From: Raja brachyura
Lineage: Eukaryota
NCBI GenBank assembly: GCA_963514005.1
Contig: OY740800.1
Coordinates: 30,442,001 to 30,506,000 of the forward strand
Direction: 5' to 3'
Length of the DNA: 64,000 nucleotides
The translations under genes were made by a program, and so were the position numbers. Shown here piece by piece: positions 15,519-58,645 of the stretch (its first letter is position 1; each line of letters begins with the position of its first letter). Below the pieces are notes generated by a model that searched no databases, was not told the DNA's origin, and saw nothing but the letters and a program-made list of their open reading frames with translations.

Positions 15519-15612
15519 CTGAAGAAGGGTCTCGACCTGAAAAGTCACCTGTTCCTTTTCTCTGGAGATGCTGTCTGACTTGCTGAGTTACTCCAGCTTT
15601 TTGTCTTTATCT
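15519..15612 (+). repeat. Penelope-derived terminal-repeat fragment with mutated hammerhead core
   Basis: CTGAAGAAGGGTCTCGACCTGAAAAGTCACC...gagatgctg...gctgagttactccagc. Confidence 0.75.
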
Positions 15613-15817
15613 CCTCTGGACATTCTGATTCTCTCAACTCCTGGGAAATTTCCTTACCCATAGTTTATCCTGGAAAATGTTGTGGACAGATGTGGCTGTT
15701 AGGACAGGGAAACTGCTGGCAAGGAGATTTTCTTGTTCATTTTTGCTATTCAATAAATTGGTCCTTTTCAGTCTGTCTAAGTCCCAGTCCTGAGAAATGC
15801 CCTTTTCCTCCTCACAG

Positions 15818-15908
15818 GTGTCTCTGGATGGAACTTGTGTTACAGAGGAAGTCAATGTATCGGTCACCTTCCTGATCACGTCAGAAAGTGAGAAGTGGAT
15901 GGTGGCAG
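15818..15908 (+). CDS. NWD1: NWD1 coding exon
   Basis: ctcctcacag|GTG...GCA G|gtaag; VSLDGTCVTEEVNVSVTFLITSESEKWMVA; phase fits both neighbours. Confidence 0.85.
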
Positions 15909-16127
15909 GTAAGGACGTACAGATGAAGCTTTCTCTGTATCTTTGATCGGACTTTGCTGGCATTACCTTGCCTTAATAGTTATTCCCTTATCATGTAGTA
16001 TCTATACATAATAAATGGCTCAATTGTAATCATGTATTGTCCTTCTGCTGACTGGTCAGCACGCAACAAAAACTTTTCACTGTACACGTGACAATAAACG
16101 AAACTGAACTGAACTAATTGAACTGTA

Positions 16128-16320
16128 TAGGAAGGAACTCCAGATGCTGTTTACACCGAAGATAGGCACAAAATACTGGATAGGAATGGGTGACATTTCG
16201 GGCCAAGACCCTTCTTCAGACTGGACTGAAGTAAGGTCTCAGCCCAAAATGTAATCCATTGCGTCTATGCGGAGATGCTGCCTGTCCCGCTGAGTTACCC
16301 CAGCACTTTGTGTCTATCGG
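16128..16320. repeat. Palindromic Penelope-derived repeat
   Basis: Head-to-head copies of the same terminal repeat (gggtgacatttcggg...cttcagact / ctgaag...gatgctgcctgtcccgctgagtta). Confidence 0.7.
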
Positions 16321-16895
16321 AAATAAATTGTTGATTTACTCCTTCATGTCAGGCACTTTCCTCCAAGCAGTTTTTAATTCCAAAGCAGCGGGTAGTGAGA
16401 CAAGCCTATATAGCATTCTCCATTGCAAATGTCCAGTCCGCTTTATTATTGTAGTGCTCCTCCAAACCTCTCTTTTGTTTTGCCCAGCTCCACATATTGT
16501 ATATTCAGTCACCCATCAGCCACATGACTTCCTGCTGATGGTAATCCTTCTCCGGCCATGCTACAAATGCAGAGACACCAGCGCCACTAACTTATTTCAA
16601 GCTGAAGCCCTTCAGCAACTTCAGTGGGCAAGCGACAGCTTTTAATTCAAGATGAGAAAGACTGATATATTAGATTAATCTTTAGATAATGGTGACATGC
16701 TTCAAAAGGGGTTAAAAATGTTATGCTCAACAGGAAGTCATGCGTGTTTTGTTTCAACATAGGTTACAGATTCGTTGATATGCTAAGAGAGGCTTCAAAA
16801 TCTTACATTTAAACAAATATCTTATTGTGAGTTGATAGCTACTTGTTTTATTTGAGTTATCAAGTCAATATTTCCTAATAGCGTTCGAAATGTCT

Positions 16896-17099
16896 AGGAA
16901 GGAACTGCAGATGCTGGTTTAAACCCGCAGATAGACACAAAATGCTGGAGTAACTCAGCCGGACAGGCAGCATCTTTGGAACGAAGGAATGGGCGACTGT
17001 TCAGTCTGAAGAAGGGCCTCGACCCGAAACATCACCCATTCCTTCTCTCCAAAGATGCTGCCTGTCCCGCTGAGTTACTCCAGCATTTTGTGTCTATCC
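16896..17099. repeat. Palindromic Penelope-derived repeat with hammerhead-like core at 17006-17033
   Basis: gatagacacaaaatgctggagtaactcagc.ggacaggcagcatct is inverted to agatgctgcctgtcccgctgagttactccagcattttgtgtctatc. Confidence 0.8.
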
Positions 17100-20000
17100 C
17101 AATAGCATTCGTTCATCTTAAGTCTTTGGCACAAATCCACATTGGTTTTCTGTTTAGTAAGAAGTCTATGATAAAATTTTCATCCTTATGTTAAATGCCT
17201 CATGGTTGAACCTCACCCTTTCACTGTGACCTGCTTCAGCCCTTTGCTATGTGATTGTTGCATTTTCTGGTAGCATAAGGTACTGCACACACAAATGTAG
17301 CCAAGACCTGGTCGACTGATAAAATCATCTTGCATTAACAAGGATTGTAGCTGCTTAAAGTCCCAGGCACTTTGGACTTTCTTGGCATTGATCTATGTTA
17401 CTGGAAAACAGAGTCATGAGGTGAGTGGTTAATAGTTTATAAGCTGAGAAGCCATATCCCAGGAAGGGCCACCTAGTTAGACTTCTGAAACCCTTGTCGT
17501 CAATGACCAGACCCAATGTAAGAAATAAATGGGAAACAAACAGGGAAATGAAAGTTTTGAAGATAAATCAATGATTTCAAATAGGTATGAAAGGGGAGCA
17601 TTTTGTTCTACAAGGCTGATCCACCATCCGCTCAGAACTTGTTGATCTTCAATGTTAGCAACATTTTGCCTGCCTGTTCCTGATACTTCTTGATTCCTTT
17701 AATATCCATAATTCTATTGCTTTGAAGGCAATCAATGATTTAATCTCCCAATCTTTGAGGTAGAGAATTCAAAATTGCACTACCTTCTGTGTGACGTCTT
17801 CTCTTTTCAATGGTAATTGTGTGATTTGTTTTGACTGACGCCTGCCAGCCATATGCAAAGTACAACTTCACATCTCTATACAATACAATACAGTTTATTG
17901 TCATTTGTTCTAACAAAATTTAGTTTCTGCAGTCATACAAACAAGAAAAGGACCAAGACACAACACAATTTACACAAACATCCATCACAGTGAATCTCCT
18001 ACTCACTGTGATGTCAAGACTTAGAGAAGTCTTCAGAAATGGTTCAAATCAAAGATCTCAGAAGAAATATCTTCCGAGCATTTAGCCTGTCAAACCCACT
18101 GAGTAGAAGATAGGTTCCGACCCAAAATGTTGTCTATCCATTCCCTCATCAAACTATGAAATGTTCCATTTGGTCCTCTTAGTTGAACGTCAATGTACAT
18201 TGTAGATAATTGGGATACTAGCTTGAGGTACCACCAGTCATAACCTGCCAACTGGAGAAGAATCCATTCATTCCCACTCTGTATTCCATCTGTGACCCAA
18301 CTCTCAGTCCATGGTTGTATATTTGACCCACTTCCAACCTTGTTCAGCAACCTCTTGGATGGATCTTATCAGAATCATCACGACCATCACTGCGGCCCCT
18401 CAGATGATGTACAAGAGCACACTAAACAATACAACTCCTTTCAAATTGCCTGAGAGCAATAAAGTCATAGAGTCATAGAGAGTGTAGAAACAGGCCGTTC
18501 GGCCCAACTTGCCCACACCAGCTGCACTAGTCCCACCTGCCCGCGTTTGGTCCATATCCCTCCAAACCTGTCCTGTCCATGTATTTGTCTACATAACGTA
18601 TTAACAATGGAGATTCCATCTCAAAAGGATTATCCAAAATGCAACATTAATTTCTGAAAACATAGTTGCATCACATCTACCGACTCTTCATTTACTCTAT
18701 TAAGTATGTCTGTAAATAGCTCAACAGGTTAGTGAAACATAATTTTCTTTAAATTCATGTTGCTTCTACTCCTGTTATCATTCTCAAAGTATATTGATAA
18801 TGTACTCTTTATTACAGGTTCTCAAATAGTGGGGCGCATTTGCTATGCTCCATTCCAGAATCCATGAACTATAATAACTAAACCATCCACTATCCCCTCG
18901 GCCACCTTCTAAACCTGCGGGTGTACATCAGAAAGTCCTGGGGATTTTTTAATTATTAGGCATATAAACTCTTTGAATATTTTGTTGCACAAAAACTAAT
19001 ATACATTAAATCATAATTTGCACTGGATCTGCACATCTTCTCATGGGATGTATTTGTTTGATGTTGTTTCCTTATCCGCTGTTATAATTCACCCACCTCT
19101 ACTGATGCTGCCTGACGTGCTGTACTCTTCCAACCCATTATGATTTTATTTCTGCAGGTTATTATTTTTGCTTTTCGAGGGGAAATGAAAATAAGATGGC
19201 ATAAAATTATACCTAGTACCAATTGATAATTCTGAGTATTTATCAACCAGCTCTTCTGAGTGTACATTGTCTCACTCATGTGAGTTAGACAACGTACTAG
19301 TTCATGCCCACTTACTACCTTGCCAGGAATTATTCCATGTTGGATCCTCTGTACAGGAGCTCTCAGGACAAGAGGACACTCAGTCAAGTCTGCAGCACAG
19401 CAGTTCCCTCAGGCTACGGATGAGCTTTGGATCAGTCATTACATCACACTTTTGCACACCCTTCATATCCCAAACTCTCAAAACTATACACTTTAGGCTT
19501 GTACGCATCTACAGGCTATTGGGGACATGTATTTAATTATTTGTGTTGATATTTCTAATGAATAACCCAGCTCTGGCAATAAGCTCATGGCCTCTTGCTC
19601 TCACAGAGATTCTAAGATTTTACAGAAATTGTGGGGCATGTAGAGTAAATGAGACGGAGAGAGATACATTGATACAATATCTTGTACATGATACATCACA
19701 GTAATTCTTTAAACCATTTTCATCGTTTCCTCTCTCTCCTTACCTGCCAAACAATCCCTCCTTTCCTGGATCCACCTATCACTTGCCAGCTCCAGCCCCT
19801 TCTTCTAGTTATCTCCCCTCGATCTCCCCTCGTCTGAAGAAGGGTCCCGACCCAAAACTCGCTGACTTCCTCCTCAAGTTTTTGTTTGCTCAAGATTCCA
19901 GCATCTGCAGTACTCTTGTGTCTCCACAAAACCATCTACTTACTATGACGAAATACTAACATGGATGAGTGATTGGAGTGGCCCAAAGATGATCTTTGGA

Positions 20001-20210
20001 GGATGCCAGAACTAAAAGGGAAAAAGAGCCAGTGAGCTAGTTTTGTGATATGACTGGATAAAATTGAATAGAATCAGATGAGTGGCCTCTTCCAGTGGGA
20101 TAGGAATTACCTTGAACTATCCTGGATGAGAACCCATTTACCTTAATGCTCCCTAAAATACAGTAGTGAACATAGTACAGGTGTGTGCACAACACAAACT
20201 AGAAACAGAT

Positions 20211-20482
20211 GCGGCATGGTAGCGCAATGGTAGAGTTGCTGCCTGACTGCGCCAAAGACCCGGTTTCGATCCTGATTATGGGTGCTGTCTGCATGGAGTT
20301 TGTACGTTCTCCCCGTGACCTATGTGGGTTTCCTCCAGGTGCTCCTGTTTCCTCTTACACTCCAAAGACGTACGGGTTTGTAAGTTAATTGGCTTGGTAA
20401 AATTGTAAATTGTTCCTAGTGTGTGTAGGTGCGGACTCAGTGGGCTGAAGGGCCTGTTTCCGTGCTGTATCTCTAAACTCTA
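20211..20482 (+). mobile_element. tRNA-derived V-SINE/HE1-like SINE
   Basis: GCGGCATGGTAGCGCAATGGTAG (A box), GTTTCGATCC (B box), tail gaagggcctgtttccgtgctgtatctctaaact. Confidence 0.8.
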
Positions 20483-20538
20483 CTGGGGAGTGAAACATGC
20501 AACTGTAACATTCTAATAGGATAATATTTTAATTACAG

Positions 20539-25849: not shown

Positions 25850-27252
25850 ACAAGTGAGGATAGTTGAAAAATTGTCCTCTACGATAATCCTTAATACTGG
25901 TGCCCCGCAAGGTTTCTTTACTCCGTACACCACCCCCCCCCCCCCCCCCCCCCCCCGGCTGTGCAGCCATATCCAAACCCAACTCAATTTACAAATTTGG
26001 AGAGAATACCGCTGTAGGGGGCTGGATATGAAATACCAACGAGACTGAATACAGGAAGAAGATTGAGAACCTTGTAACCTGTGGTCAAGACCTTTCGCTC
26101 GCTGTCAACAAGACAAAATAGATTGTGATCAACTTCAGAAAGCGAAGCAGTGCACATACCTGGAGTACACTGACGGTGCTGAATAAGAGATGGTTTAAAT
26201 CTTCAAGTTCCTAGGAGAAAATATCACCAGCAGCTTGTCCTGGACCAGCCATATCGAAGCAATGGCCAAGAAAGCACACCAACACCTCAACTTCCTTAGA
26301 AGGCTTCGGAAGTCCCCAACAACTCTCTCCAACTTCCAAAGATAGAAACATAGAAAATAGGTGCTGGAGGAGGCCATTCGGCCCTTCGATCCAGCAACGC
26401 GATTCATTCTGATCATGGCTGATCGGCCCCTATTAATAACCCGTGCCTGCCTTTTCCCCATATCCCTTGACTCCACTAGCCCATAGAGCTCTATCTAACT
26501 CTCTCTTAAATCCATCCAGTGACTTGGCCTCCACTGCCCTCTGTGGCAGGGATTTCCATAAATTCACAACTCTCTCGGTGAAAATGTTTTTTCTCACCTC
26601 AGTCTTAAATGACCTCCCCTTTATTCTAAGACTGTGGCCCCTGGTTCTGGACTCGCCCCACATTGGGAACATTTTTCCTGCATCTAGCGCCGGAAGAGAT
26701 GCGCCGGAAAAAGCATTTTATCGGGATGCATCAAAGCATAGCTTGGGAACAGCTCCATCCAAGACCATAAGAAATTGCAGAGAATTGTGGATGCAGCTCA
26801 GACCATCTCAAACCTACCTTTCTTCCATTAATTCCATCTACACTTCACACTGCCTTGGCAGGGCCACCAGCATAATCAAGAACAAGTCTCACCCTGGATT
26901 TTCTCTCATCATCCCTCCCCCATCAGGCAAGAGGTACAGAAGTGTGAAAAAGCATACCTCCAGATTCAGGCAAACTTTCTTTCCAGTCATCATCAGGCAT
27001 CTGAACAATTCCATCACCCTCTAGAGAGTGGTCATGACCTACCATCTACCTCATTGGAGACCCTCAGACCATCTTTAGGTGGACTTTACTAGACTTTATC
27101 TTGTACTAAACATTATGCCCTTTATCCTGTATCGGTATACTGTGGACGGCTGGACTGTAAACATGTGTAGTCTTTCTGCTGACTGGATAGCACTCGACAA
27201 AAAACTTCTCACTGTACCTCGATACACATGACAATAAACTAAACTAAACTAC
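25850..27252 (+). mobile_element. Rex1/Babar-like LINE fragment with nested CR1
   Basis: ILNTGAPQG, FKFLG, KKAHQ.L.FLRRL, PSGKRYRSV..HTSRF..TFFP; ends AATAAA(CTAAA)n. Confidence 0.75.
26342..26687 (-). mobile_element. CR1 3' fragment nested in the Rex-like LINE
   Basis: MFPMWGESRTRGHSLRIKGR.FKTEVRKN.FTERVVNLW on the minus strand, with the TTCTATGT tail. Confidence 0.88.
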
Positions 27253-28614: not shown

Positions 28615-29475
28615 TCAAAAAATAAAGTGCTGGAGGAACTCAGCGGGTTAGACAGCATCCATGGAGGGAATGGACAAATGACGTTTCTGGTTGGGGCCCT
28701 TGTTCAGATGCTTGTAGTGGTGTGGGCGGAGGGGGGGGGGGCAAAGCCTAGGAAATGATAGTTGGTTAGAGGTGAGAGGTGTTTGATTGGCAGATGGGTG
28801 GAGTAAGTGACAAAGGGTCAGAGATGACAAGGAGGCAACAGAGTGATGGATAGAGGAGGATTGAAATGTAAAACCAGAGGCAGGGGCTTGGTGGAAGGGG
28901 ATGAAAGGAAAGGGGAAGAGGGGTAGGTGAAAGGGGAATGAGGAACTCGGGGATGGGAACTGAGTGTGCGAAGGAAGGGAAAGGAACATGGTGATTGGGG
29001 AGGGGAAAGTGCAAGAAATGGGTGTACTCCGGGGTGGGGGTGGGAGGCACAGGATACGTAGAGGAGGTAGTGGGGTTATTATTTAAAATGGAAGAATTTG
29101 GTGTTCGACCGGATTATCTCCCTCTTTCCTCTATCCCCTGTGCCATGTACCCACCTATATCCCTCTCTCTGGCTTTACACTTCACTTCTCTTTACCCCTT
29201 ATCTGACACCCTTTTGTCCCCTCTTTCATCTCTAACCTTTGTCACTTCACCCATCTGCCAATCAAACCCTGTCACAATCCACTTTCCAGGCATTGTCTCA
29301 TTCTAACCTCTATTTCCTGACTTTCTCTCCCTCTACTACAATTAATGTGAAGAAGAGTTCTGACCCAACACGTTGCCTGTCTATTCCATCCACAGATGCC
29401 TCCTGACCCGTTGAGCTCCTCCAGCACTTCGTATTTTGCTCAAGATTCTAATATCTGCAGTTCCTTGTGTCTCCA
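28615..29475. mobile_element. Inverted pair of Penelope-derived 3'/terminal fragments
   Basis: 28625-28710 is inverted to 29346-29430; ttgattggcagatgggtg...gtgacaaagg is inverted to cctttgtcac...cacccatctgccaatcaa. Confidence 0.72.
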
Positions 29476-32186: not shown

Positions 32187-32280
32187 TTACACAAAAAGCT
32201 GGAGAAACTCAGCGGGTGCAGCAGCATCTAAGGAGCGAAGGAGATAGGCGACGTTTCAGGTCGAGACCCTTCTTCAGACA
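32187..32280 (-). repeat. Penelope-derived repeat with intact minimal hammerhead core
   Basis: Minus strand: CUGAAGA A GGGUCUCGACCU GAAAC GUC. Confidence 0.72.
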
Positions 32281-40307: not shown

Positions 40308-40900
40308 TCTGAAGATAGACACAAAAAGCTGGAGTAACTCAGCGGGTTAGGCGAAATAAGTGACGTTTCGGGTCGAGAACCTTCTTCAGACCGAGAGTCA
40401 GGGGAGAGGGAAAGGAGAGATATGAAAAGGTACATAGAACAATCGAATGAAAGACATGGATAAGGACCAATGAAAGCCAACAAAATGATCAAGGAAAGGT
40501 GGAGCTCAGAATGGTCCATTGTTAACTGTGGAGGTGATAACGAGTGATACAAATGGTGAAACTTAGTAGGACGACAGTGAAACCATGACGACAACTAGGG
40601 TGAGGAAGGGACGGATAGAGAGGATGCAGAGGTTACTTAAAGTTAGATAAATCAATATTCATACCGTTGGGTTGCAAGCTCTCCTAGTGAAATATGAGGT
40701 GTGTTCCTCCAAATTGCATCTGACAGTGGAGGAAGCCCAGGACAGATAGATTAGTATCGGTATGGATTTAAAGTGTTTGGCAACCCGGAGATCACCTAGG
40801 CCCATGTGGACTGAGCGAAAGTGTTCAGAGAAATTATCCCTTAGTCTGCGCTTGGTGTTGCAGATATAGGGAGTCCACACCTAGAACAGTGGATACAGTC
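40308..40900 (-). mobile_element. Penelope/Poseidon-like element 3' fragment: GIY-YIG remnant plus terminal repeat with hammerhead core
   Basis: Minus strand YICNTKRRLRDNFSEHFRSV...VAKHF matches the YIG-T-R.L..RF.EH pattern of PLE endonucleases. It runs into the repeat with GGU CUGAAGA A GGUUCUCGACCC GAAAC GUC ACU (40359-40392). Confidence 0.8.
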
Positions 40901-43605: not shown

Positions 43606-43736
43606 TGAAGGGGGGGTCTCGACCCGGAACGTCACCCATTCCGTCTCTCCAGAGATGCTGCCTCTCCTGTTGAGTTACTCCAGCATTTTGTGTCTTATCT
43701 TTGGCTTAAACCAGCATCTGCAGTTCCTTCCTACAC
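43606..43736 (+). repeat. Penelope-derived terminal-repeat fragment
   Basis: gggtctcgacccggaacgtcacccattcc...gagttactccagcattttgtgtc...ccagcatctgcagttccttcct. Confidence 0.75.
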
Positions 43737-46973: not shown

Positions 46974-47049
46974 CTGCAACACAAGGTTCACAAATTACAG
47001 AGCAGCAATAACTTGTACGTACGCAGGACCCGCATCACAATTTTAGATT

Positions 47050-47335
47050 AAAGTTACAGCACGGAAACAGCCCCTTCGGCCCACCGAGTCCGTGCCGATA
47101 CTCTAGCATCATCCTACATGCACTAGGGGCAATTTACAATCTTTACCAAAACCAATTAACCTACCAACCTGCATCTCTTGGGGGTGTGGGAGGAAACCGG
47201 AGCACCCGGGGAAAACCCACGCGGACACGGGGAGAACATACAAACTCCACAAAGACAGCACCTGTAGCTAGGATCGAACCCGGGTCTCTGGCGCTGCAAG
47301 GCAGCAACTCTACCGCAAGGCAGCACCATGCCGCC
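47050..47335 (-). mobile_element. tRNA-derived V-SINE/HE1-like SINE
   Basis: B box GGTTCGATCC, conserved body, CR1-like tail ctgtttccgtgctgta. Confidence 0.8.
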
Positions 47336-48299
47336 TATAATGCCATGCTTGAGGTGCTTCACAGGACTGTAATGTGACTGTAAATTTTATCACCTGATCA
47401 CGTGAAGAGCTATCAGGAAAGGTGAGCACAGGTTTGGTCACAAGTGAGCAGCACATGGTAGTGGTGGGGAGGATAGAGATAGATATGGGGAGGGAGTGCC
47501 TTCGAGCGCGGCACCACTGAGAGTCATGGAAGAAAGAACAATGGGGACTGGTCCAGATGCCAGGACCAGGGAACTGCAGAGACCAGGGAGAGTTGTGGAA
47601 TTGGAGGAGGTTGTAGAACCAGTGAGGAAGGAGGCCAGGCTCGAATGAGAATTTGTGAATAGAAGCGGCGATCAATAAACGGTGAGTAGAATTAAGAAAT
47701 GGAGTGTGAGGGTAGAGGAAGACAGAGCGAGAGAGATATAAAAGAGAAATAAAGGAGTGAATCCAGGAAAATTGCCCCCCTGTGGTGGTAGATGGCTGAC
47801 AAGTGGGTCGGGGGGGGGGGGGGGGGAAGAGTGAAGTGGATCACCTTCTGTGCATGGTAGGCACAGGCAGGCAATGCCTTACCCTGTGATGGGGCCCCAC
47901 ACCATCACAACCATTTTGACCCACAGAAACTGGTCTTACAAAACTTCCTGCTGATCGACACAAGGCATTACACGCAGAGAAACATGCCAGATATTTGAGG
48001 TGTGACTGGAGCAGGGCTTAAGACTCAGAGATGGGTTCCAGCCAAGCCCCATGGAGAAATGAACACCCCCCTCCCCTCATGGTGGCCCAGTGGGATGGCT
48101 TGCAGAGAGGATGTGTTCTGGAGTTCTAACGTTCTCGTCGTGATGATTCTTTTCCACTGAGTCGGCAGCCAACGTTTTAGCTGTTGCTCATTACACCAGC
48201 CGCACTCGTCGGAAACCACAACCTGATCAGAGATTCTTAACAGCGGCAGCAGGAAATTCAATGTTCAGTCAGCAGAGATGGACCGCTAGCTTCCATCAA

Positions 48300-48650
48300 T
48301 ATATCGCCCACTACCCCCGACCCGTCTGACAGACCCACCTCAACAACACACAAACCCCACTCCACAAAATCCCCCCCCCCAACTCCAATTATGATCGCCA
48401 AAATCTCTACCCCCTGCCCAACCACAACGCAACCCCCATCCCCAAACTCCACACCCACCTCTCTCACTGAACCCTTCAACCATACCCCAACCCATCCCCA
48501 TTCCACTCCATCGCCTCCCATTCCCCAACCCCAGACCCACACCCTGCTCCTCCCACTTCTCAAACCTCAATCGCTGCACATCCCTCACTCCTCAAACTCA
48601 CCCCATACCCCTAAAGACACTTAACCCCCCCCCCCCCCCACCTCTCTCCT
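48300..48650. repeat. C/A-rich low-complexity tract
   Basis: Runs of CCCC interspersed with A; G-rich on the minus strand. Confidence 0.7.
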
Positions 48651-48831
48651 TCAGGGTGTGCACCATGACTCATGCCCAACCCCATTCTATGTTCAAAGGG
48701 CAGCAGCAACCTGCAGATTCCTCCTCCAATACATTGCTGATGCCAAGCTCAATGGGGTTTCCAGTATTGCATGGAACCACTAGAACCAACCCGGCCTCAT
48801 CAGCTGCCGTCAGTTGCCGACTTGCCCTTAC

Positions 48832-48922
48832 CCCCAGGCCCGATCGGCTGCATCAGTCGGGTCAGCTGCACGTTCCACTGTTTCACACATCGACTCGCCT
48901 GCCTCCGCTTTGTCTTCGCCGC
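48832..48922 (-). CDS. DEF6/SWAP70-family coding exon
   Basis: tctcttcag|GCG...GGG G|gtaag; AAKTKRRQASRCVKQWNVQLTRLMQPIGPG resembles the DEF6 WNVQMNRLMHPIEPG motif (recalled). Confidence 0.9.
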
Positions 48923-49337
48923 CTGAAGAGAAAAGGACATCTTAACACAGCTAGACAGGTCCTACCATCAAGCCACTTACAAAAAGCACAGAGACAGTGT
49001 GCCATGCTGATCAGACCAACGCCAATCCCAATGCCCCACACTCTGGCAGTGGTGCTGGTTTGAGGAAACACTGACTATTGGCATCAGTCTCAGTGCTCAT
49101 TCACCAACCTGCAGGATAACGCAAAATGCTCAGCAATTAAATTCACAATAAGTAGACTGAATTAAGTAAAAGGAAAAGCTTCTAGGAACAGGGTATCATT
49201 TCCAATAGTGGCTTTTCGACAGTCAGAAACAGGCAGACTCTGGCTTTTCCACATGAAAACAATGTTGCAGCGTCACCAAGAGCAATTGGTCACAGCATAT
49301 GAGGAATACTGCTTTAAAACAGCAACAACCAATGTCC

Positions 49338-49537
49338 GAAGATAAATACAAAATGCTGGAGTAACTCAGCGGGACAGGCAGCATCACTGGATAGAAGTAA
49401 TGGGTGACGTTTCGGGTCGAGACCCTTCTTCAGACTCAACCCGAAAAGTCACCCATTCCTTCTAACCTGTCCCGCTGAGTTACTCCAATATTTTGTGTCT
49501 ATCTTTGGTTTAAACCAGCATCTGCAGTTCCTTCCTA
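49338..49537. repeat. Palindromic Penelope-derived repeat with consensus hammerhead core on the - strand (49403-49436)
   Basis: Minus: AGU CUGAAGA A GGGU-CUCG-ACCC GAAAC GUC ACC; flanking arms are inverted. Confidence 0.8.
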
Positions 49538-49771
49538 AACGACCAATGACCCATACGTTACATGGCCCATCTGTAATTTATAGCTTTCTGCTTGGAAAGT
49601 AGGTGATGTAAGTTTGCCAGGCAGAGTGGCTAGAATTTATCCCCTACAACGTTAAGGTTGAAACAGAAAAGGTGAAAAGAATGATATCCCGAGTTTGCCC
49701 TGTGGATATCTGACAGGTCTATGCAAAGATCCAATCACTCCTGAAGTCCATGCCAATCCAATTCAGGATAT

Positions 49772-49985
49772 AGGAAAGAACTGCAGATGCTGGTTTAAAT
49801 CAAAGATAGACACAAAACGCTGGAGTATCTCAGCGGAACAGGCAGAATCTCTGGAGAGAAGAAATGGGTGATGTTTTGGGTCGACATCCTACTTCAGACT
49901 GAATCATTCCTGAAATGTTATCCATTTCTGCTCTTCAGAGATGCTGCCTGTGCTGCTGAGTTACTCCAGTATTTTGTGCCTATCC
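49772..49985. repeat. Palindromic Penelope-derived repeat, degraded
   Basis: Same arms as 16896-17099. Confidence 0.72.
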
Positions 49986-50320
49986 AATGCAGGCTAATTG
50001 AGTACCTCTTATATTAACCCTGTACTTTCTCATTCCTGCTTCACTGACTGCTGCAGGGTCTTGCTGATAAGATGACCTGGTGTAACTTGGCGACTAATCT
50101 TGCAGTGTGGCAAATAGTGAGGCTGCAAGGAGTGGTACTGACCTGAATGGCACAAGTACCGATCCCTCAGAGCAGTGTGGACAATTTCTAATCACAATTT
50201 AAATACCAATTTGCTTTCTCATTGTTCTTCCCAGAGTCGATGCCCTCACACGTCCCCTGCATAATATTCAAATTGCCAATTTGTTCACTCACTAAACCTA
50301 TCTCCACCCTCCACCCTGTC

Positions 50321-50518
50321 GGAAGGGACTGCAGATGCAGGGTTACACTAAAGATAGACACAAAATACTGGAGTAACTCAGCGGGTCAGGCATCATTTCT
50401 GGAGAAAAGGTGACATTTTGGGTCGAGACCCTTCTTCAGACAGAGTCAGGGGAGAGGGAAACTAGAGGTATGAAAAGATACAGACCAAATCAGACCCGGT
50501 ACCGATGACCAAGGAGCC
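50321..50518 (-). repeat. Penelope-derived terminal-repeat fragment
   Basis: Matches 40308-40500; GAAA core mutated to AAAA. Confidence 0.72.
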
Positions 50519-50519
50519 C

Positions 50520-52130
50520 ACCTTGTGAACCTAAGCTGCACTCCCTCAATAGCAAAAATGTCCTTCCTCAAAATATGATACCAAAATTGCACACAATACT
50601 CCAGGTGCGGTCTCACCAGGACCCTGTACAACTGCAGTAGGACCTCCGTGCTCATAAACTCAAATCCTCTCGCAATGAAGTCCAACATGCCATTAGCTTT
50701 CTACACTGCCTGCTGTTCCTGCATGCTTACTTTCAGTGACTGATGTACAAGCACACCCAGGTCTCGTTGCACCTCCCCTTTTTCTAATCTGATACCGTTC
50801 AGATAACAATCTGCCTTCCTGTTCTCACCACCAAAATGTATAATCTATTGGTTCCCTTTTATAACAGCCATAGTCGTATCGCACAGAAATGCACCCTTCA
50901 GCCCACCATGTCCAAGTTGAGCTACAGTAATGCCATTTGCCCATATTGCGTCTGTATCTATGGCTTGTCTATTCAAATGTCTGTCTAAATGTGTCCTAAA
51001 CATAGTAATTGTATCCGATTCTACCATCGCTCCTGCCAGTGTGTTCCAGACACAACAACTCTTTATAAAAATAACACACCTCTAAGATCCCCTCTGAATC
51101 TCCTATTTCCCTTCTTAAAACTAGTGCACTCTTGTTTTTGATAGCCCTACTATGAAAAAAAAACAATCTGACTTGTTTACCCTAACACCACCTCTTGTAA
51201 TGTTATCTACTTCTGTCAGTCTCCCTCGCTCCCCTAAGCCTATCCAATCTCTCCCCATGACTAAATTTCTCCAGTCGAGGCAACATCTTGCTGAATCTCC
51301 TTTGTACTCTATCCAGCACAACCACATCCTTCCTGTACTGTGGTGACCGGAACTGCACACACTGCTCTAAGTGTGGCCTATCCTGTGTTTTGAAATTTTT
51401 ATTGAAGTGTTTTATATTTTATGCCCTGAACTATGAAGGCAAGCATACCATATACCTTTTTCACCACCCTACCGACGTGTGTTGCCTTTTTCAGGGAACA
51501 TCATTCTATTCATCAACATTCGTTTGCACCCTACCATTTACTTCCTATACCATAGCCCTATTTGGTCCCCAATACTCCACCACACATTTATGTACATAAG
51601 TTATAGGAGCAGAATTACATCACATCTACTCCGCCATTCAATCATGCCCGATCTATCTTTCCCTCTCAACCCCATTCTCATGCCTTCTCCCCATAACCCT
51701 TGACATCCTTGCTAATCAAGAACCTAATAACCTCCACCTTAAAAATACCCATCGTCCTGGCCTCCACAGCCTTCCTTGCTAATGAATTCCACAGATTCAC
51801 CTCCTTCTGACAAAAGAAATTCCTCCTCATCTTTCTAAAGGTAGGTGTTTTCATTCTGAGGCTACAGCTTCTGGTTTTAGATACTCCCACTCGTGGAAGC
51901 CACGTCTCCACATCCACTACACCAGGCCTTTCACAATTCAGTAAGTTTCAATGAGCTTCTCCCTCATCCTTCTAAATTCTAGTGAATACAGGCCCAATGC
52001 CGTCAAACGCTCATCATATGTTAACCTAATCATCCCTGGAATAATTTTCGTAAACCTCCTCTGGACTCTCTCCAACGCCAGCACATCCTTCCTCAGAAAT
52101 GGAGCCCAAAACTGCTCACAATACTCCAAA
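50520..52130 (-). mobile_element. Cluster of CR1 3' fragments of different ages
   Basis: FIARGFEF...LLQLYRVLVRPHLEYCVQFW (50520-50850); LEYCEQFWAPFLRKDVLALERVQRRFT...LYSLEFRR (51600-52130); an older piece lies between. Confidence 0.8.
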
Positions 52131-52367
52131 TTTGTTGGTATTAAATTACATCTGCCAATGCTCTGCCCATCTTTCCAACTGATCCAGATCCTGTTGCAGC
52201 TTTTGACAACCTTCCTCACTATCCACAGCACCACCAACTTTATCCACCCTCCTTGTTGTGTCCTCACAGATGTCAAACTCAAGTTCCCTTTCACACTACT
52301 ATGGTGACTCGGCGAGTGTTACAAGGGCCAAGACCTATGCACGGTGTGGTTGGGAGGGGTTACTCAC

Positions 52368-52545
52368 AGCCAGGTCCTGCTTGTGATGCCGACGGTTCTC
52401 CCTCAGCTCATCCACTGCTTGCTGCAGAGCTTGTGCCTCATGGGTCATCTGTTGCCGCTCCTCCTGCCAGAGCAGAGGGTTGAGATCCTGCTCCGACTTC
52501 AGCCTCATCAGCTCCCTCAGCTTCTCCTCCTCCTCCTGCAACAGC
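52368..52545 (-). CDS. DEF6/SWAP70-family coding exon (coiled coil)
   Basis: gctttcag|G CTG...GCT|gtgagt; LLQEEEEKLRELMRLKSEQ...LQQAVDELRENR. Confidence 0.9.
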
Positions 52546-53127
52546 CTGAAAGCAAGAGTGGCAAAAGGAGAGTTCAAAAGGGCAGCTTTGCTGCGTGGAA
52601 CCATTTGATTGTGGGCAACTTTACAGCAAAGTATGGTGAGGAAGGAGGAGATGAAAGCATCAAGGAAACTTGCACTTCTCACTCCTAAAGCCCTCTTCAG
52701 CCTTTGAAAGCGCTGCAATGCAGGAAATACAGCAGGAGTTGGGTTATTTTCCATGAATATGAAAGAGAAAAGCAACCAAATAACTTGCTTTCCCTCCCAG
52801 TGGGGAGATACATATTGTCTGGGAAACAGTGAAGGAGTAATTGTCATTATTATACATTATTATGTCCACCAACCATCAAACATCTACCAAACTACCAATT
52901 AACCAAACAATCTGCACCTCTTTGGGATGTGGGAGCATCCGGAAGAAACCCACATGGCCACAGGGAGGACTTGCAAACTCCTCACAGACATCACCGCAGC
53001 CAAGTGTTGGGGAAGTGGCAGAAATCTTGTGCCCGAGGGAAAATGGGAGAACCTGGACGCTAAAGTAGGACTTGGAGGAGATTTTAAACAGGCTGTGAGA
53101 AAGTATCAAGCAAAGGCTCATCTTTTG

Positions 53128-53425
53128 GGCCGCACAGTGGCACAGCAGTAGAGCTGCTGCCTCACAGCCCCTGAGACCTGGGTTCAGTCCTGACTATGGG
53201 TTTTTGTAAAGAGCTTGTACGTTCTCCCTGTCACCACGTGGGTTTTCTCCGGGTGCTCAGGTTTCCTCCCACATTCCAAAGATAAATAGATTTGTAGGTT
53301 AATTTGCTTTAGTTTAAAAAAAAATTAAATTGTCCCTAGTGTGTAGGATAGTGTCAGTGTACAGGTTGATCGCTGGTCGGCACAAACGCGATGGGCTGAA
53401 GGGCCTTTTAGCGCGCTGTATCCCT
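53128..53425 (+). mobile_element. tRNA-derived V-SINE/HE1-like SINE
   Basis: GGCCGCACAGTGGCACAGCAGTAG...GGTTCAGTCC, conserved body and tail. Confidence 0.78.
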
Positions 53426-53571
53426 TTCGTCGGTGGAATGGGTTATATTACCACTGAGCTCCCATGTAGATGTGAGAAAGCTCCTGCATGCATTAGGGAG
53501 GTGTAAGCAGTTTAGTGGTTCAATCCTAACCAGCCCATTACAAGCCGTCTGGCGGCAGCCGGTGTCCTCAC

Positions 53572-53738
53572 CTTGCCTGTGCCGAGCGTGCCGCCTGCTC
53601 GCGGGTTCGTGCCTGGATCTCCACCTCCAACGCCTGCTCCAGCCCTCGCTGCATCCGCTCCAGCTCCTGAATCCGGCGGCGCTGAAATCCTGCCTCCACT
53701 TCTTTCTGCTCCATCTCCAGTTGCAGGTGGAGGTTGTC
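53572..53738 (-). CDS. DEF6/SWAP70-family coding exon (coiled coil)
   Basis: ctccccttgaag|GAC...GCA AG|gtgag; LQLEMEQKEVEA..QRRRIQELERMQRGLEQALEVEIQAR. Confidence 0.88.
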
Positions 53739-55687
53739 CTTCAAGGGGAGGAGTAAGAGACAGAGGGGTCACAGACGGAATAACTCGGCAGACACCCAAT
53801 GTTCTGAGCTCGGTCTTGGGAAGAGATTAGCAGGATGGTGAAAAAGTTTCATGGAAGCTCCAAATCACTTTGAAGAAAGGAAAAATTCCCATCGATTCCT
53901 TGGAATTTACGTTTTTTTTTTTTTGCCCATGTTTATGTGCTGCTGCTGAAAGCAAGATTTTGATTGTCCCTGTACCTCACTATACTTGTGCATATGGCAA
54001 TGAACTCGACTTGAATCTCAGGTGCCTAAAAGCTCAAAGTAGACAAGGAGCATAAATGATTTGGATGAAAATGTGAATGGGTTGATTAGGAAGCTTGCAG
54101 ACTGCACAATATTTGGTCGAGTTGCAGACAATACAAAAGGCTGCTAAAGTACACAGCAGGATATAGACCAGTTGCAGGTATGCCAGATGGAGTTAAATCT
54201 GGAGACAAAAGTGATTGCAGATGCTGGAATCCTGAGAAAAACAAAGTGCTGGAGGAACTCAGTAGGTAAAGCTGCATCTGTGGAAGGAAATGGACAGATG
54301 ATGTTTCGGGTCGGGACCCTCCTTCACTGATGGGAGGTGGGGGGGGGGGTTATTTGGAATAGCGAGGTGGGGGTGAGAAGAGCCTGGCAAATGATAGGTG
54401 GATAAAAGAGGGGTGGAGGGTGATTAGCAGATGGGTGGTGCTGGATGTTATGTGAAAAGGCAGTTAAGGAGGTTTCAAATCGGCACTTAAATATACAAGG
54501 AATGGAAGGATATCGATCACATACAAGCAGAAGGGATTAGTTTAATTTGGCATCATGTTTGGCACAGACATCGTGGGCTGAAGGGACGGTTCCTGTGCTG
54601 TACTGTTCTATTTTCTGTGCATTTACATTTTTTCTGACTATAGGCTTTACTGTTGTATTTGTTCTGTAGTTATCTGGTCCAATCTTGCTGGAGATCTTAG
54701 CCTCATAACTCCAAGGCTGCATGTAATTATTTGGACCGAGACAAGCGATGGTAACTCTATCGTGACAATCACCGCCAGGGCAGGGAGAGGACATTTCCCT
54801 TGAGGCTGCTCCGTTTAATACTGCCGCACCGTTGCTGCATGTTAGATGGATGGCAAAATCAGATGCACCCATGGTTCGGTGCGAGTTAACAGGTTCAGCT
54901 CCACACCGGGTCACAATGGTGGTGAACAATAAACAGGGCGGAGGAGACTCCATAAATACGTGAATGCAAAAGGAGAGAGTGAAGTGTTTGCAACCATCTT
55001 CAGGCACGGGTAGCACCCCAGCCTGCCTCCTGCATGATATCAGTAAATGGGGAAGTGCTTGAGACAGACTCGGAGAGAGATGCAGCCCAACGGGTCTGCA
55101 CCAACCATAAACCACCCGTTTGCACTAATCCCACATTAATTCCATTTGTCATTCTCCGCACATTCTCAACTCCCCTCCCCAGCAAAAGAGGTTTCCTTTA
55201 GAAAATGGTGCTGCGGTGCTGATAACCTATGCTTGACATCTGTATTCATGTTCCTCCAGAGTAGTTAGAACACTGATGCTTATCCAACACTTAAGAATTG
55301 TCCATAAGACATTGAGTAGCACATAGGCTAGGTCCAGAGCACACCTCCCTCTTCCCTGTCTACCATACTGACAACCCCAAGGCTGATACAGTGAGGATCA
55401 AAAACTCAGCGTATTCCAATCACCCGGTCTCCATACCTGCCTCTGGATGTCCTTTCTGAGTGAGGTCTGCCTCGGCACAGCCTTTTACTGTGGGCCCTTT
55501 CCCTCTGGACTCTGCATTGAGGCTGCTTGAACACCTGCTTTCTCATCTTGCAGGCAAGGCAAACCCCCAGGTCTAACCCCAGCCCTAGTCCCAACCATCA
55601 CCAAGCCTAGATGTGGTCCAACACCAGGCCCATAGCCAGACCTAAGCTCATGTTCAACCACAGGCCAAGCCTTCCGTTAGTTCTTAC

Positions 55688-55795
55688 CTCCTGAGCCTGG
55701 TGTAGTTGCTTCTGCAGCACCTGCTCCATCTCTTCCTGCTGCTCCGTCCACTGGAACTCCTTGTTGTGCCAAATGGCCTGAGCTTCTTCCTGGGC
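55688..55795 (-). CDS. DEF6/SWAP70-family coding exon
   Basis: ctcctag|GCC...GAG|gtaag; 108 nt; AQEEAQAIWHNKEFQWTEQQEEMEQVLQKQLHQAQE. Confidence 0.82.
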
Positions 55796-57181
55796 CTAGG
55801 AGTCCAACAAGAAGGGGTAGTCATGTGGAGCAGCTAATGATGTGTGAGCTGAGGACCATCAGGACTGTCTCAGAGACAGCTGGCCCGGTAGCCATGGCAA
55901 CAGGATTGGACCATTTCTACAATTGGTCTTCTTATTTTATTGTGTTGCACAGGGAGCCAAATGCAACGTAATTTCGTTTGGAACTGCATATATCAATGTA
56001 TTTCTAAATGACAATAAAGTTTGTTTGACTTTGACTTGACTTGACTTCTTCACACAGAGGGGAGTCCGTATTGGAACGAGCTGCCACAGGAAACTGCAGA
56101 AGCGGATACAATTGTGACTTTTAAAAGACATTTGGACCGATATATGGTTAGGTTGGGTTTAAGAGGCCTTTGTTCCAAATGCAGGCAGATGGAACTAACC
56201 CAGAATACGAACTTGGTCAACACATTAAAGTTCAGCTGAAGGGCCTTTTTCCATGCTGAAGAGTTCCATGACTCTATGACCTGTAGACGTTGCAATATTT
56301 GGTATCCGTCTTTGGTGGAAAGTTTTTGTCAGGCTGATGTAGGATTTGCCTGGTGGTCATTAGTATCATGTTCCCCTTCCAGTCGGTGTCAGTTCACTGG
56401 ACCAGTATTGTTTAAAGTGTAGGAAGATCATAGCATGACTTGGCTTCCCTCCCCAACACTAATTGGATGGTGACTGACTGCTCAAAGGTGAGGTGGAGGG
56501 GAAGGGGCAGTGGGAGAGACTGGAGGGATCTCTCCCACCCTCTTTCACAGTGCCACTCACAGCACAATACCACTCCCTTGGCCCTAATTTCAGCCAATGT
56601 AACATCCAAGGATGGCAGGAACCCTGTCCCAAGGACATTACTGCTTGATGTGGCCAGGATACCCTGTTATCATGGGATGGCACAGAGAGGTCACACATGT
56701 GGAGGCAGAGGGTGGGGGGGGCACGTACTGAAAGTGTGTTGGAGATCGGTGAAGGTGAGAGAAGGTGGATGAAGTGGAGAGATCACAGGATTGGGGGAAC
56801 GGTGGGAGAAAATCAGGGTATGTTTGGTTCCATGTACATGCGTGCACACAGATAAATACATACAGGTACGCACACGCCCCTCAGTTGGGTTGAATACTGT
56901 GCACAGTCGAATACGGGTGTAACCTGTACACAGCCCTGGGATCTCACTGACCAGCTTGTATTACAAACAGGCCACTTGCTGCCTCGAGCCAGTGCACCAG
57001 TTTGCCACTGAGTACGTACACGTGAGTATTCTCACAGCCGTGCCCAGCTTTTTCACAATGTGCGATCCAGCCCTAATGCATCCCAGTTTCCCCCCATCCC
57101 TCCCCTAGTCTTGAGCTTAGACCAGGGTCTCCAGGCAGACGCAGGAGGGGGTGGCGGGGGTACACAGGGAAGCCCACGTAC

Positions 57182-57363
57182 CCGTCTGAGCCTCTCCAGC
57201 TCCTGCAGCTGCTTTTGCTTCTCCTGCTGCAACACCACCAGGCTTTGCTCCTCCTTCTTCTTCCTCTGTGCCGCTTGCTGTCGTAGCTCCCGCCGCCGGG
57301 CCTTCTGCTCCCTGTGCAGAGGCGGCTTGTTCTCTGCCTGAAGCCCAATGGCCATGGTGATAC
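57182..57363 (-). CDS. DEF6/SWAP70-family coding exon (end of PH, start of coiled coil)
   Basis: tgtgcag|GT ATC...CGG|gtacg; ITMAIGLQAENKPPLHREQKARRRELR...LQQEKQKQLQELE. Confidence 0.9.
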
Positions 57364-58424
57364 CTGCACAGAGAACAGCATTCACCACACTGAGTGATGC
57401 ACATGGACCCCGTTCCCTCTTCTGTCATCCACTGCCTATGCCTAAGCAATGGATCACGGCATTTCTTTCCCAAATCCCAAGCTGCCGGTGGGAAGCGAGC
57501 CCCGTGAGGAGGTGTCTTGGATTCGGGGTTCATCACGAGCAGGGTGGACACACCACACAGGATACGTTGCCTCAATGTGCCCCAGATCCTCCCACAACAT
57601 CTCCTCAACCCCCGACTTCCACCATATCGACAAGATCAGGGCAACAGATGTGTGCAACTCCACCACCCACAGATTCCCCTCCAAGTCACACACCATCCTG
57701 GTCTTGGATGTACATCGCCGGTCCTCCCTCATCGACAGCACAGTGGAAGCACCTTCACCAAAAAGCCTGCGAGGGGACAAAGAGGCCACTCACCAGCACC
57801 TTCAGGGGTAATTAAGGTTGAGCAATAAAGGCTGGTCTAACTATTGCAACATCATCTCAGACATGAATGATGTCTTACCAACTCCAGGTGGTCATGCACA
57901 CGTGCCAGCTAACACGCATGCCTGTTAACACACACGCAATCATACACATGCTCAAGTGCAGATAGGCACAAAGATGCATATGTGCACACACATTCACATG
58001 CACTTGCATGTAGAAACACATGCATACACACAATAATGGCTTAGTAGGATATGTGCCAAACACAGGAAAATGGGGTCAGCTTAGGTAGACATTTTGATCT
58101 GCATGGATGAGTTGGGCCGAGAGGCCTGTTTCCGTGTTTTATCACTGTGACAAATATGCATAATTAACAACAAGTTCATACATACACACAAGTACACATT
58201 CTCTGAAACCAGTCTGGTTGGAAATAACGGGGCAAAAGCACCTCCTTCTTTGTCCTTGAGAAATATGGGAATTCCTTCTCTTGGATACATAATGAATGTT
58301 GGAAAAAGAAAAAACAAATATTTGTATTGGTTTCCTATTGTCACATGTCGAGATAGTGAAAACATACTTGGTACAAAAATGTACCGAGATACAGTAGTCA
58401 CACCAGCTTCTCGTTTTCACCCAA

Positions 58425-58645
58425 CAAACGGCTAACAATGGGCTGTTTCCTTTATCATCATTACTTTTTTGCATATCGTTCATTTATTGTTCAATATCTC
58501 CCAACATCATCGTCCATATCTCTTGTTTCCCTTTCCCCTGACTGGTCCGAAGAAGGGACTCAAACCGAAACGTCACCCATTCCCTCTCTCCTGAGATGCT
58601 GCCTGTCCCACTGAGTTACTCCAGGTTTTTGTGGCTACCTTCAGT
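58425..58645 (+). repeat. Penelope-derived terminal-repeat fragment
   Basis: GGT CCGAAGA A GGGACTCAAACC GAAAC GTC ACC; reverse complement of the 40308-40540 type. Confidence 0.72.

What the first reader, a model, noticed from the sequence alone, without database searches (positions are those of the whole stretch)
15519..58580. Dispersed Penelope-derived repeats carry minimal hammerhead ribozyme cores
Seen: more than ten copies of a repeat with consensus GGU-CUGAAGA-A-GGGU(CUCG)ACCC-GAAAC-GUC-ACC. This is a CUGANGA/GAAA hammerhead core with an extra A after A9, a 4-bp stem II, a palindromic ACGU in place of stem III, a GUC cleavage triplet and a short GGU/ACC stem I. Cores are intact on the - strand at 32247-32280, 40359-40392 and 49403-49436, and mutated at 15519, 17006, 19834, 43606, 50409 and 58544. 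The copy at 40308-40900 joins a GIY-YIG remnant, tying the repeat to Penelope-like elements. Established: PLE terminal repeats contain minimal type I hammerheads thought to cleave as dimers. Inference: a very abundant ribozyme-bearing family fills the introns of both genes.
Basis: partly seen in the sequence, partly recalled or inferred. Interest (0 to 1): 0.7.

Follow-up and report, generated by a model that had tools for sequence, protein, structure and literature searches.

The report
Skate Penelope transposon ends with hammerheads
These scattered repeats in a skate genome are decaying end pieces of a Penelope-type jumping gene, each carrying a known kind of minimal self-cutting RNA motif; the one new point is that many copies begin right at the motif's front edge, which hints that the element's RNA starts there.

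Summary
A family profile finds 21 clear copies among 24 hits, and one joins a GIY-YIG remnant related to ray proteins with a Neptune-type zinc linker. The motif fits the published minimal type I hammerhead of Penelope-like elements, so this is a new member of a known kind, in a rajid skate. Corrections: only 3 of 13 complete cores are structurally intact and 1 is perfect; stem I is mostly 2 bp; stem II shows no covariation; copies cover about 6% of the window. Five of 14 insertions are head-to-head pairs, each with one long-tailed and one short-tailed arm, three with clear target-site duplications. Seven of 14 insertions end within 7 nt of the core's 5' edge (P about 1e-5). The best reading is internal priming at two tail sites on uncleaved RNA, running off an RNA 5' end just before the ribozyme. 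That end overlaps Inr/MTE/DPE-like motifs at correct spacing, so the hammerhead may double as the promoter. Cleavage, the start site and the promoter are all untested.

The parts
49403..49436 (-). Best minimal type I hammerhead; C3 at 49433, predicted cut between 49406 and 49405; 2-bp stem I
   Evidence: 12/12 core bases, 4/4 Watson-Crick stem II
32247..32280 (-). Hammerhead, core intact, G-U at 10.1-11.1 and U-G in stem I
40359..40392 (-). Hammerhead, core intact, U-C mismatch in stem II, 3-bp stem I
40636..40900 (-). Frameshifted C-terminal GIY-YIG endonuclease remnant of the PLE ORF, ending at its stop codon
   Evidence: tblastn with P0004/P0006/P0007, E 4e-14, 4e-10, 2e-14; relatives match Pfam GIY-YIG below cut-off
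40308..40635 (-). Pyrimidine-rich 3' UTR, hammerhead and short-tail end of the longest copy
16128..16318 (.). Head-to-head pair 1: minus arm with long tail (reaches -4 from C3), plus arm with short tail (starts at C3); no clear TSD
16895..17098 (.). Head-to-head pair 2: plus arm short tail (reaches -5), minus arm long tail (starts about +20 to +25); TSD about 13 bp at 16875-16887 and 17099-17111
49336..49537 (.). Head-to-head pair 3: minus arm short tail (reaches -3), plus arm long tail (starts about +12); TSD about 11 bp at 49324-49334 and 49538-49548
   Evidence: as RNA folds into one -115 kcal/mol hairpin
49771..49984 (.). Head-to-head pair 4: minus arm long tail (reaches -5), plus arm short tail (starts about +17); TSD about 12 bp at 49759-49770 and 49985-49996
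28622..29472 (.). Head-to-head pair 5, older subfamily B, arms extend over 200 nt into the 3' UTR; plus arm long tail, minus arm short; no clear TSD
32188..32279 (-). Solo short copy starting 1-2 nt before C3, perfect 15-bp TSD at 32173-32187 and 32279-32293
15518..15610 (+). Solo short copy starting 1 nt before C3, short tail, palindrome mutated
43606..43733 (+). Solo copy starting at U4, long tail, core mutated
50320..50517 (-). Solo copy with part of the 3' UTR, long tail, G12 mutated, inside a CR1-like LINE piece; weak 9-bp TSD
58467..58643 (+). Solo copy with part of the 3' UTR, short tail, U4 and stem II mutated
19744..19924 (+). Subfamily B solo, long tail, internal deletion removes the cleavage site
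54203..54438 (-). Subfamily B solo, long tail, core mutated
13681..13762 (+). Solo fragment starting downstream of the hammerhead, long tail
12332..12425 (+). Old diverged copy
   Evidence: 29.6 bits, not in the training set
18104..18147 (+). Old diverged fragment of the hammerhead region
   Evidence: 19.8 bits, not in the training set
63931..64000 (+). Borderline old copy cut by the window end
   Evidence: 14.1 bits against a best control of 13.2
17001..17035 (+). Example of the Inr-like motif (A at 17003, 3 nt before C3) with MTE/Bridge/DPE-like matches lying inside the hammerhead
   Evidence: Inr 6/6, MTE 8/12, Bridge I 4/4, DPE 4/6 (consensuses from PMC4581360 Table 1)

Best explanation
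The repeats are 5'-truncated insertions of a Neptune-type Penelope-like retrotransposon of skates. Each is its terminal repeat (pLTR): a minimal type I hammerhead, about 65 nt more, and an optional tail of about 34 nt. SHOWN: the link to the endonuclease, two 3' end classes, target-site duplications, head-to-head pairs with one tailed arm, and a sharp peak of 5' ends at the core's 5' edge. FROM KNOWN PLE BIOLOGY: the RT-endonuclease nicks target DNA and starts reverse transcription inside its RNA at two sites that bound the tail. The hammerhead cannot form stem III alone and needs a second copy pairing through the ACGU palindrome, probably with protein help. INFERRED: the templates were uncut or re-joined at the cleavage site, because the copies run through it. 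Short copies are cDNAs that ran off an RNA 5' end within about 8 nt before C3; long copies came from read-through or circular RNA. Pairs arose when both nicked target strands primed, one at each tail site, and the two cDNA ends were joined with some trimming. The genomic copies are now neutral debris, and any ribozyme role belonged to the master transcript. Confidence is about 0.9 for the identity, 0.6 for an RNA 5' end at the core edge and 0.45 for double priming.
For: Endonuclease remnant continuous with the repeat; its relatives P0006/P0007 are named from two rays and carry the CX2-5CxxC linker and the CCHH residues (definitions in PMC8557442). 3' ends of 19 aligned copies fall in two classes, 9 short and 10 long, about 34 nt apart. 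This matches the 30-40-bp PLE tail (PMC8557442) and the two RT start sites of the Anolis element (PMC11167929). 5 of 5 pairs have one long and one short arm; solos are 5 long and 4 short, so about 0.03 by chance (hand calculation). TSD score p<0.005 in 4 of 14 insertions. 7 of 14 insertions reach only -5 to +1 from C3: P=1.5e-5 under a fitted exponential, 1.3e-3 under a shorter mean. In pairs 2 and 3 each arm holds sequence the other lacks, which simple fold-back of one complete cDNA does not give. The Anolis protein cuts and extends both strands and uses uncleaved RNA.
Against: No RT-coding remnant, full element or tandem unit in the window (only the endonuclease end matched P0006-P0008), so clade and autonomy rest on relatives. 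No clear TSD in 8 of 14 insertions and a weak one in 2. No covariation in stem II. In the energy model the double-hammerhead fold of the best copy is -6.1 kcal/mol against -21.1 for an inactive duplex, and stem I is not formed in the longer contexts folded. 5' reaches were set by eye, n is 14, and the long-copy values are approximate. Three of the four complete pair arms reach -4 or -5, beyond an Inr start at -3.
Confidence: 0.75

Rival explanations
1. The 5' boundary is a splicing signature. The pyrimidine tract and AG just before the core are the 3' splice site of a pLTR intron, and RT stops at or near the branch point of a lariat intermediate.
For: In D. virilis Penelope the intron ends at 491 and C3 is at 496 (PMC2377424; PMC4209133 Table S1). 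Long subfamily-A copies have a pyrimidine tract and a branch-like motif about 9 nt before C3. About 26 of 56 published PLE-type hammerheads show a YAG in the listed upstream bases (by-eye count).
Against: No short copy carries a shared upstream exon: the 32247 copy abuts its TSD and upstream flanks do not align. The candidate branch point is very close to the AG. The whole 3' UTR is pyrimidine-rich, so the tract is not specific.
Confidence: 0.2
2. Pairs come from self-priming (fold-back) of an antisense RNA or of the first cDNA, as proposed for rotifer PLEs, followed by asymmetric deletion at the palindrome centre. The 5' peak is an RT stop at a protein-bound or dimerised hammerhead, not an RNA end.
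For: Published model for head-to-head pLTRs (PMC3846280 Discussion). Short microhomology at some junctions. Pair 2 arms are 93% identical against a mean 80% for non-partners and share one non-majority base.
Against: In 2 of 4 young pairs the arm complete at the 5' end lacks the tail that the other arm has. Pairs 1 and 4 are no more alike than non-partners (76% and 80%). A stop 5' of the core means RT had already unwound it.
Confidence: 0.3
3. The motif is no longer a ribozyme in this family. It is kept only as a promoter or protein-binding signal, or by descent.
For: 2-bp stem I in most copies, unfavourable fold, no covariation. Ribozyme mutants did not affect insertion by the Anolis element in vitro. 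8 of 9 Xenopus dimers did not cleave (bioRxiv 10.64898/2026.07.22.740005).
Against: The majority sequence keeps every catalytic position, the G10.1-C11.1 pair and the palindrome in both subfamilies, which DNA-level promoter selection alone would not need.
Confidence: 0.2
4. Individual intronic copies were co-opted to cut or regulate host pre-mRNA.
For: The one perfect core (49403-49436) is on the same strand as the PH-domain gene and probably in one of its introns.
Against: It is locked in a -115 kcal/mol hairpin with its partner arm, with stem II probability about 0. Core positions are not significantly conserved over background (p=0.11). The 32247 core is antisense to NWD1.
Confidence: 0.03

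Closest known systems
Minimal type I hammerheads of metazoan PLEs (Cervera and De la Pena 2014, PMC4209133)
   Same: Same core, extra base after A9, G10.1-C11.1, palindromic 15.2-16.2, position in the terminal repeat after the endonuclease, mostly dispersed single copies, some opposite-strand pairs.
   Different: No cartilaginous fish among the 56 listed motifs. Stem I here is mostly 2 bp, against 3 or more in most listed motifs; stem II is 4 bp.
Poseidon element of Anolis carolinensis (Frangieh et al. 2024, PMC11167929)
   Same: Hammerhead followed by two internal RT start sites that define a tail; uncleaved RNA as template; both DNA strands cut and extended.
   Different: Poseidon clade, without the zinc linker seen in this family's relatives. 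Its ORF starts inside stem II; here no ORF start could be placed. A 5'-end peak at the ribozyme is not reported in the parts read.
Inverted pLTR structures of Adineta vaga Penelope elements (PMC3846280) and PLEs in general (PMC8557442)
   Same: Head-to-head pLTRs, tail on one end only, TSDs of about 8-10 bp.
   Different: Here the pairs are bare 190-215-bp units with junctions inside the hammerhead in 4 of 5 cases.
Pr77/L1TcRz of Trypanosoma cruzi L1Tc (PMC4748587)
   Same: A retrotransposon 5' end that is both an internal promoter with a DPE and a self-cleaving ribozyme; a precedent for the dual reading.
   Different: HDV-like ribozyme in a LINE, shown by experiment; here a hammerhead in a PLE, and motif match only.
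Non-LTR retrozymes (bioRxiv 10.64898/2026.07.22.740005)
   Same: PLE-derived, non-coding, type I hammerhead; reported from one chondrichthyan.
   Different: Defined by head-to-tail tandem units; none of the 21 copies here is in a head-to-tail tandem.

Membership tests
Minimal type I hammerhead (PLE type) | CUGANGA and GAAA boxes, U16.1, H17 | tested here: met
   12/12 in 6 of 13 complete copies and in the majority sequence
Minimal type I hammerhead (PLE type) | Extra base after A9; G10.1-C11.1; stem II of 4 or more bp | tested here: met
   G-C in 10 of 14, G-U in 2; stem II cells 84% paired
Minimal type I hammerhead (PLE type) | Palindromic 15.1-16.1 in place of stem III | tested here: met
   A-U in 14 of 14; C-G in 7 and U-G in 3 of 14
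Minimal type I hammerhead (PLE type) | Stem I closing the motif | tested here: inconclusive
   Two inner pairs in 12 and 10 of 14; third pair in 2 of 10; 2-bp stems occur in D. virilis
Minimal type I hammerhead (PLE type) | Covariation supporting the stems | tested here: inconclusive
   0 of 4 stem II pairs with a two-sided change, score not above shuffles; the sample is decayed offspring of one or two masters, so it has little power
Minimal type I hammerhead (PLE type) | Self-cleavage as a dimer or with protein | not testable with these tools
   Energy model only
Rfam hammerhead families | Match to a curated covariance model | tested here: not met
   No hammerhead among 23 hits at E<=10; not filed under an Rfam family
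EN+ Penelope-like element | C-terminal GIY-YIG endonuclease with CCHH motif | tested here: met
   Remnant at 40636-40900 keeps the CxxC and both histidine regions in alignment to P0004/P0006/P0007
EN+ Penelope-like element | Telomerase-like RT in the same ORF | tested here: inconclusive
   Absent from the window; present upstream of the endonuclease in relative P0008
EN+ Penelope-like element | pLTR with 30-40-bp optional tail, inverted 5' copies, variable TSD | tested here: met
   About 34-nt tail, 5 pairs, TSDs of 11-15 bp in 4 of 14 insertions
Neptune clade | CX2-5CxxC linker before a C-terminal endonuclease | tested here: inconclusive
   Present in relatives P0004, P0006, P0007, P0008; the window remnant starts after it; Nematis not excluded; no RT tree built
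Non-LTR retrozyme | Head-to-tail tandem units, each with a hammerhead | tested here: not met
   All adjacent copies are inverted
Inr/MTE/DPE core promoter | Motifs at strict spacing from A+1 | tested here: inconclusive
   Majority sequence Inr 6/6, MTE 9/12, Bridge I 4/4, Bridge II 2/4, DPE 5/6; no single copy has all; chance 1e-3 (mammalian Inr) or 7e-5 (fly Inr) given the ribozyme core, post hoc
Inr/MTE/DPE core promoter | Capped transcripts starting at the Inr | not testable with these tools
   No CAGE or RACE data on hand

The most novel reading that the evidence does not exclude
In this skate PLE the hammerhead is also the element's internal RNA polymerase II core promoter. Transcription starts about 3 nt before C3 at an Inr, with MTE/Bridge and DPE positions written into stem II, the GAAA box and the cleavage site. 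Uncut capped RNA, primed twice by a dimeric RT-endonuclease at the two tail sites, gives the short solo copies and head-to-head pairs. Cleavage removes a 31-nt capped leader and allows circles that template the long copies. This would be a dual promoter/hammerhead module, and a fossil record of PLE double priming.
Probability: 0.2. Interest if true: 0.7.

Novelty: new member of a known kind. Interest (0 to 1): 0.35.

Why it matters
The basic finding extends a known PLE ribozyme class to a skate and matters little by itself. The insertion anatomy matters more. What PLE hammerheads do, and how inverted pLTRs with one tail arise, are open questions in the papers read. A family this dense (21 copies in 64 kb) gives genome-wide counts that can separate double priming from fold-back, and one 5' RACE or CAGE experiment can show whether the ribozyme doubles as the promoter.

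Tried and rejected
Rfam scan of the window: no hammerhead among 23 hits. Pfam on three reading-frame pieces of the remnant: no GIY-YIG match. Word-index protein search with the remnant: 0 of 4 candidates passed. The full HMMER scan gave 5 hits, of which only P0004 was a true relative; the other four are repeat-rich or unrelated proteins and were dropped. Search for RT or further endonuclease remnants in the window: none. Scan of bacterial and archaeal genome contigs for the family motif, in the hope of stray copies for covariation: 0 matches. Covariation count: none in stem II. A MITE-like palindromic master was rejected because the four young pairs have four different junctions. Spliced short copies with a shared first exon were rejected. 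Copies starting exactly at the cleavage site: none clear; pair 2's minus arm is ambiguous. One of seven promoter scores (58546) was off register by one base and is ignored. A target preference for ATT, as in Anolis, is only a lead: 3 of 3 pair TSDs hold it on one strand, the 2 solo TSDs do not. The coiled-coil exons of the second host gene were not matched to a named protein. The primary paper on dimer cleavage (Lunse et al.) was not seen and is known only through a review. No other eukaryotic DNA was available, so genome-wide copy number, orthologous copies and the autonomous element stayed unchecked; viral and metagenome contigs were not searched.
Full report
Setting. An exon at 3900-4097 is 98% identical to NWD1 of the thorny skate Amblyraja radiata, the best of 20 hits, so the window comes from a rajid skate or a close relative. 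That protein maps in 13 pieces from 1071 to 39609 on the plus strand. A minus-strand exon at 61213-61362 matches the PH domain of KIAA0640 at E 4e-16; that this is SWAP70, with DEF6 as its relative, is recalled. The other exons of this second gene were placed only roughly from coiled-coil reading frames.

The observation. A profile from 8 seeds gave 24 hits against a best 5.1 bits on the reversed window. A profile from 19 hand-trimmed copies gave 24 hits: those 19, two clear old copies, one borderline and two at control level, where 6 controls reached at most 13.2 bits. I count 21 copies in two subfamilies, covering about 3.7 kb or 5.8%. Twelve are in NWD1 introns, 7 in the rough span of the second gene and 2 between the genes. 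Of the 19 aligned copies, 13 have a complete core region; 6 of the 13 keep all 12 core bases, 3 also keep stem II and a pairable palindrome, and 1 is all Watson-Crick. The outer stem I base is A in 4 of 7 informative copies, so stem I is mostly 2 bp. Rfam finds no hammerhead, which I attribute to the missing stem III (inference).

Penelope identity. The copy at 40308-40900 runs from a frameshifted reading frame through a stop codon and about 250 nt of pyrimidine-rich UTR into the hammerhead. A full HMMER scan with its longest open piece gave 5 hits, one of them a true relative, P0004. P0004 aligns back over three frames at E 4e-14 and finds 3 of 89 candidates, two named from rays and one with RT plus GIY-YIG. 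These relatives carry the CX2-5CxxC linker that marks Neptune and Nematis, not Poseidon (PMC8557442 passages). The window remnant begins after the linker and no RT remnant is present, so the clade call is indirect. The motif fits the metazoan PLE consensus of Cervera and De la Pena (PMC4209133: main text parts 1-2 of 4; supplement parts 1-2 of 3), whose 56 listed motifs include no cartilaginous fish. A 2026 preprint reports tandem retrozymes and PLEs in one chondrichthyan (parts 1-3 of 5 read); its supplements were not seen and may hold this family.

Are the copies live ribozymes? Probably not. Non-CpG core positions differ from the majority in 7 of 118 cells against 114 of 1042 downstream (p=0.11), and CpG columns in 23 of 105. 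On 14 aligned cores no stem II pair has a two-sided change and the covariation score is no higher than shuffles. For the best copy the swapped double-hammerhead fold scores -6.1 kcal/mol against -21.1 for an inactive duplex. This agrees with reports of low activity and of protein-assisted cleavage in the Anolis element (PMC11167929, parts 1-2 of 4). The one perfect core is on the sense strand of the second gene but is buried in a -115 kcal/mol hairpin with its partner arm.

The 19 aligned copies form 14 insertions: 5 head-to-head pairs and 9 solos. Their 3' ends fall in two classes about 34 nt apart, 9 short and 10 long. In 5 of 5 pairs one arm is long and one short; with solos at 5 long and 4 short, chance is about 0.03 (hand calculation). 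Flanking duplications scored p<0.005 in 4 of 14 insertions, weakly in 2 and not in 8. Inverted pLTRs with one tail and a TSD are known PLE features (PMC8557442 passages; PMC3846280 passages and Discussion), and the tail is explained by two internal RT start sites.

The 5' peak. Seven of the 14 insertions reach only -5 to +1 relative to C3, one starts at +43, and six extend roughly 80-530 nt upstream. The chance that any 7-nt window holds 7 of 14 ends is 1.5e-5 under a fitted exponential and 1.3e-3 under a much shorter mean (reaches set by eye, long ones approximate). The 32247 copy fixes the boundary with a perfect 15-bp duplication. In all four young pairs one arm is complete to -3 to -5 and the other starts between 0 and about +25, with four different junctions. 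I found no report of such a peak in searches (listings and abstracts only) or in the passages read; subscription papers and several supplements were not visible.

How it most likely works. The element's protein nicks the target and primes reverse transcription at one of two tail sites. The copies cross the cleavage site, so the template was uncut or re-joined there. On RNA whose 5' end lies just before the core, the cDNA runs off after about 95-130 nt and gives a short copy; on read-through or circular RNA it continues into the UTR and ORF. When both nicked strands prime, one per site, two cDNA ends meet and are joined with trimming. Pairs 2 and 3 favour this over simple fold-back, because the arm complete at the 5' end lacks the tail that the other arm has. 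Fold-back with later deletion remains possible, and pair 2's arms are more alike (93%) than non-partners (mean 80%). These steps are inference.

What makes the 5' end? With A+1 three bases before C3, the majority sequence scores Inr 6/6, MTE 9/12, Bridge I 4/4, Bridge II 2/4 and DPE 5/6 against published consensuses (PMC4581360 Table 1; PMC8384218 passages); no single copy has all of these. Only 2 of 127,910 positions in the window have a fly-type Inr with MTE of 8 or more, and one is a copy of this repeat. Holding ribozyme-forced bases fixed, chance is 1e-3 with the mammalian Inr or 7e-5 with the fly Inr. The test is post hoc. Five of the nine MTE matches and most DPE matches follow from the ribozyme itself, the loop also fits a YNMG tetraloop (recalled), and three arms reach 1-2 nt past the Inr start. 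A precedent exists in the trypanosome L1Tc 5' end, a dual promoter and HDV-like ribozyme (PMC4748587 passages). The rival is a 3' splice site: in D. virilis the pLTR intron ends 5 nt before C3 and the start site is about 125 nt upstream (PMC2377424 passages). No short copy here carries a shared first exon.

Verdict. The 5'-end peak and the paired tails make two open questions about PLE replication testable, and the dual promoter/hammerhead reading (probability about 0.2) would deserve about 0.7. Other papers seen as passages only: PMC6155905, PMC6765202, PMC13725137. One search listed no skate paper on this family among its top 20 of 80.

Noticed in passing
window 5361-10670 (+): Full-length, young DIRS1-type retrotransposon in an NWD1 intron. 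It splits a LINE 3' end without a duplication, has inverted termini and an internal region 100% complementary to both ends, and gag-like, RT and tyrosine-recombinase frames; the RT frame has one in-frame stop near 7842.
   Followed up: partly
window 1071-39609 (+): NWD1 (NACHT and WD40) gene, 13 aligned pieces to the Amblyraja radiata protein.
   Followed up: yes
window about 46759-61362 (-): SWAP70/DEF6-like gene: PH exon at 61213-61362 and coiled-coil exons near 57200, 55700, 53650 and 52450; last exon possibly 46759-47034.
   Followed up: partly
TSDs at 17099-17111, 49538-49548, 49985-49996: All three pair duplications contain CCAAT, or its last four bases, within 1 nt of the short-tail junction, in either orientation; possible endonuclease preference.
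   Followed up: partly
window 40392 and 58545 versus 16222, 17003, 49436, 49900: The two long subfamily-A copies with a readable base have G at the outer stem I position (3-bp stem, no Inr); the four complete pair arms have A (2-bp stem, Inr). Small numbers; may mark two master variants.
   Followed up: partly
window 13681-13762: A tail fragment ends about 30 nt before the 3' splice site of an NWD1 exon.
   Followed up: no
window 2807-2935, 11814-11942, 20229-20416, 47151-47314, 52894-53313, 62403-62467 and 26338-26688, 37942-38407, 61916-62390: Other abundant repeats: a SINE-like family and CR1-like LINE 3' ends (families D2, D7, D10, D11, D14). The names V-SINE/HE1 and HER1 are recalled, not tested.
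   Followed up: no
window 16128-16223, 40308-40420, 49435-49537, 50320-50442, 19835-19924: Five copies have internal deletions of 7-37 nt within about 50 nt after the GAAA box, each with different ends.
   Followed up: no
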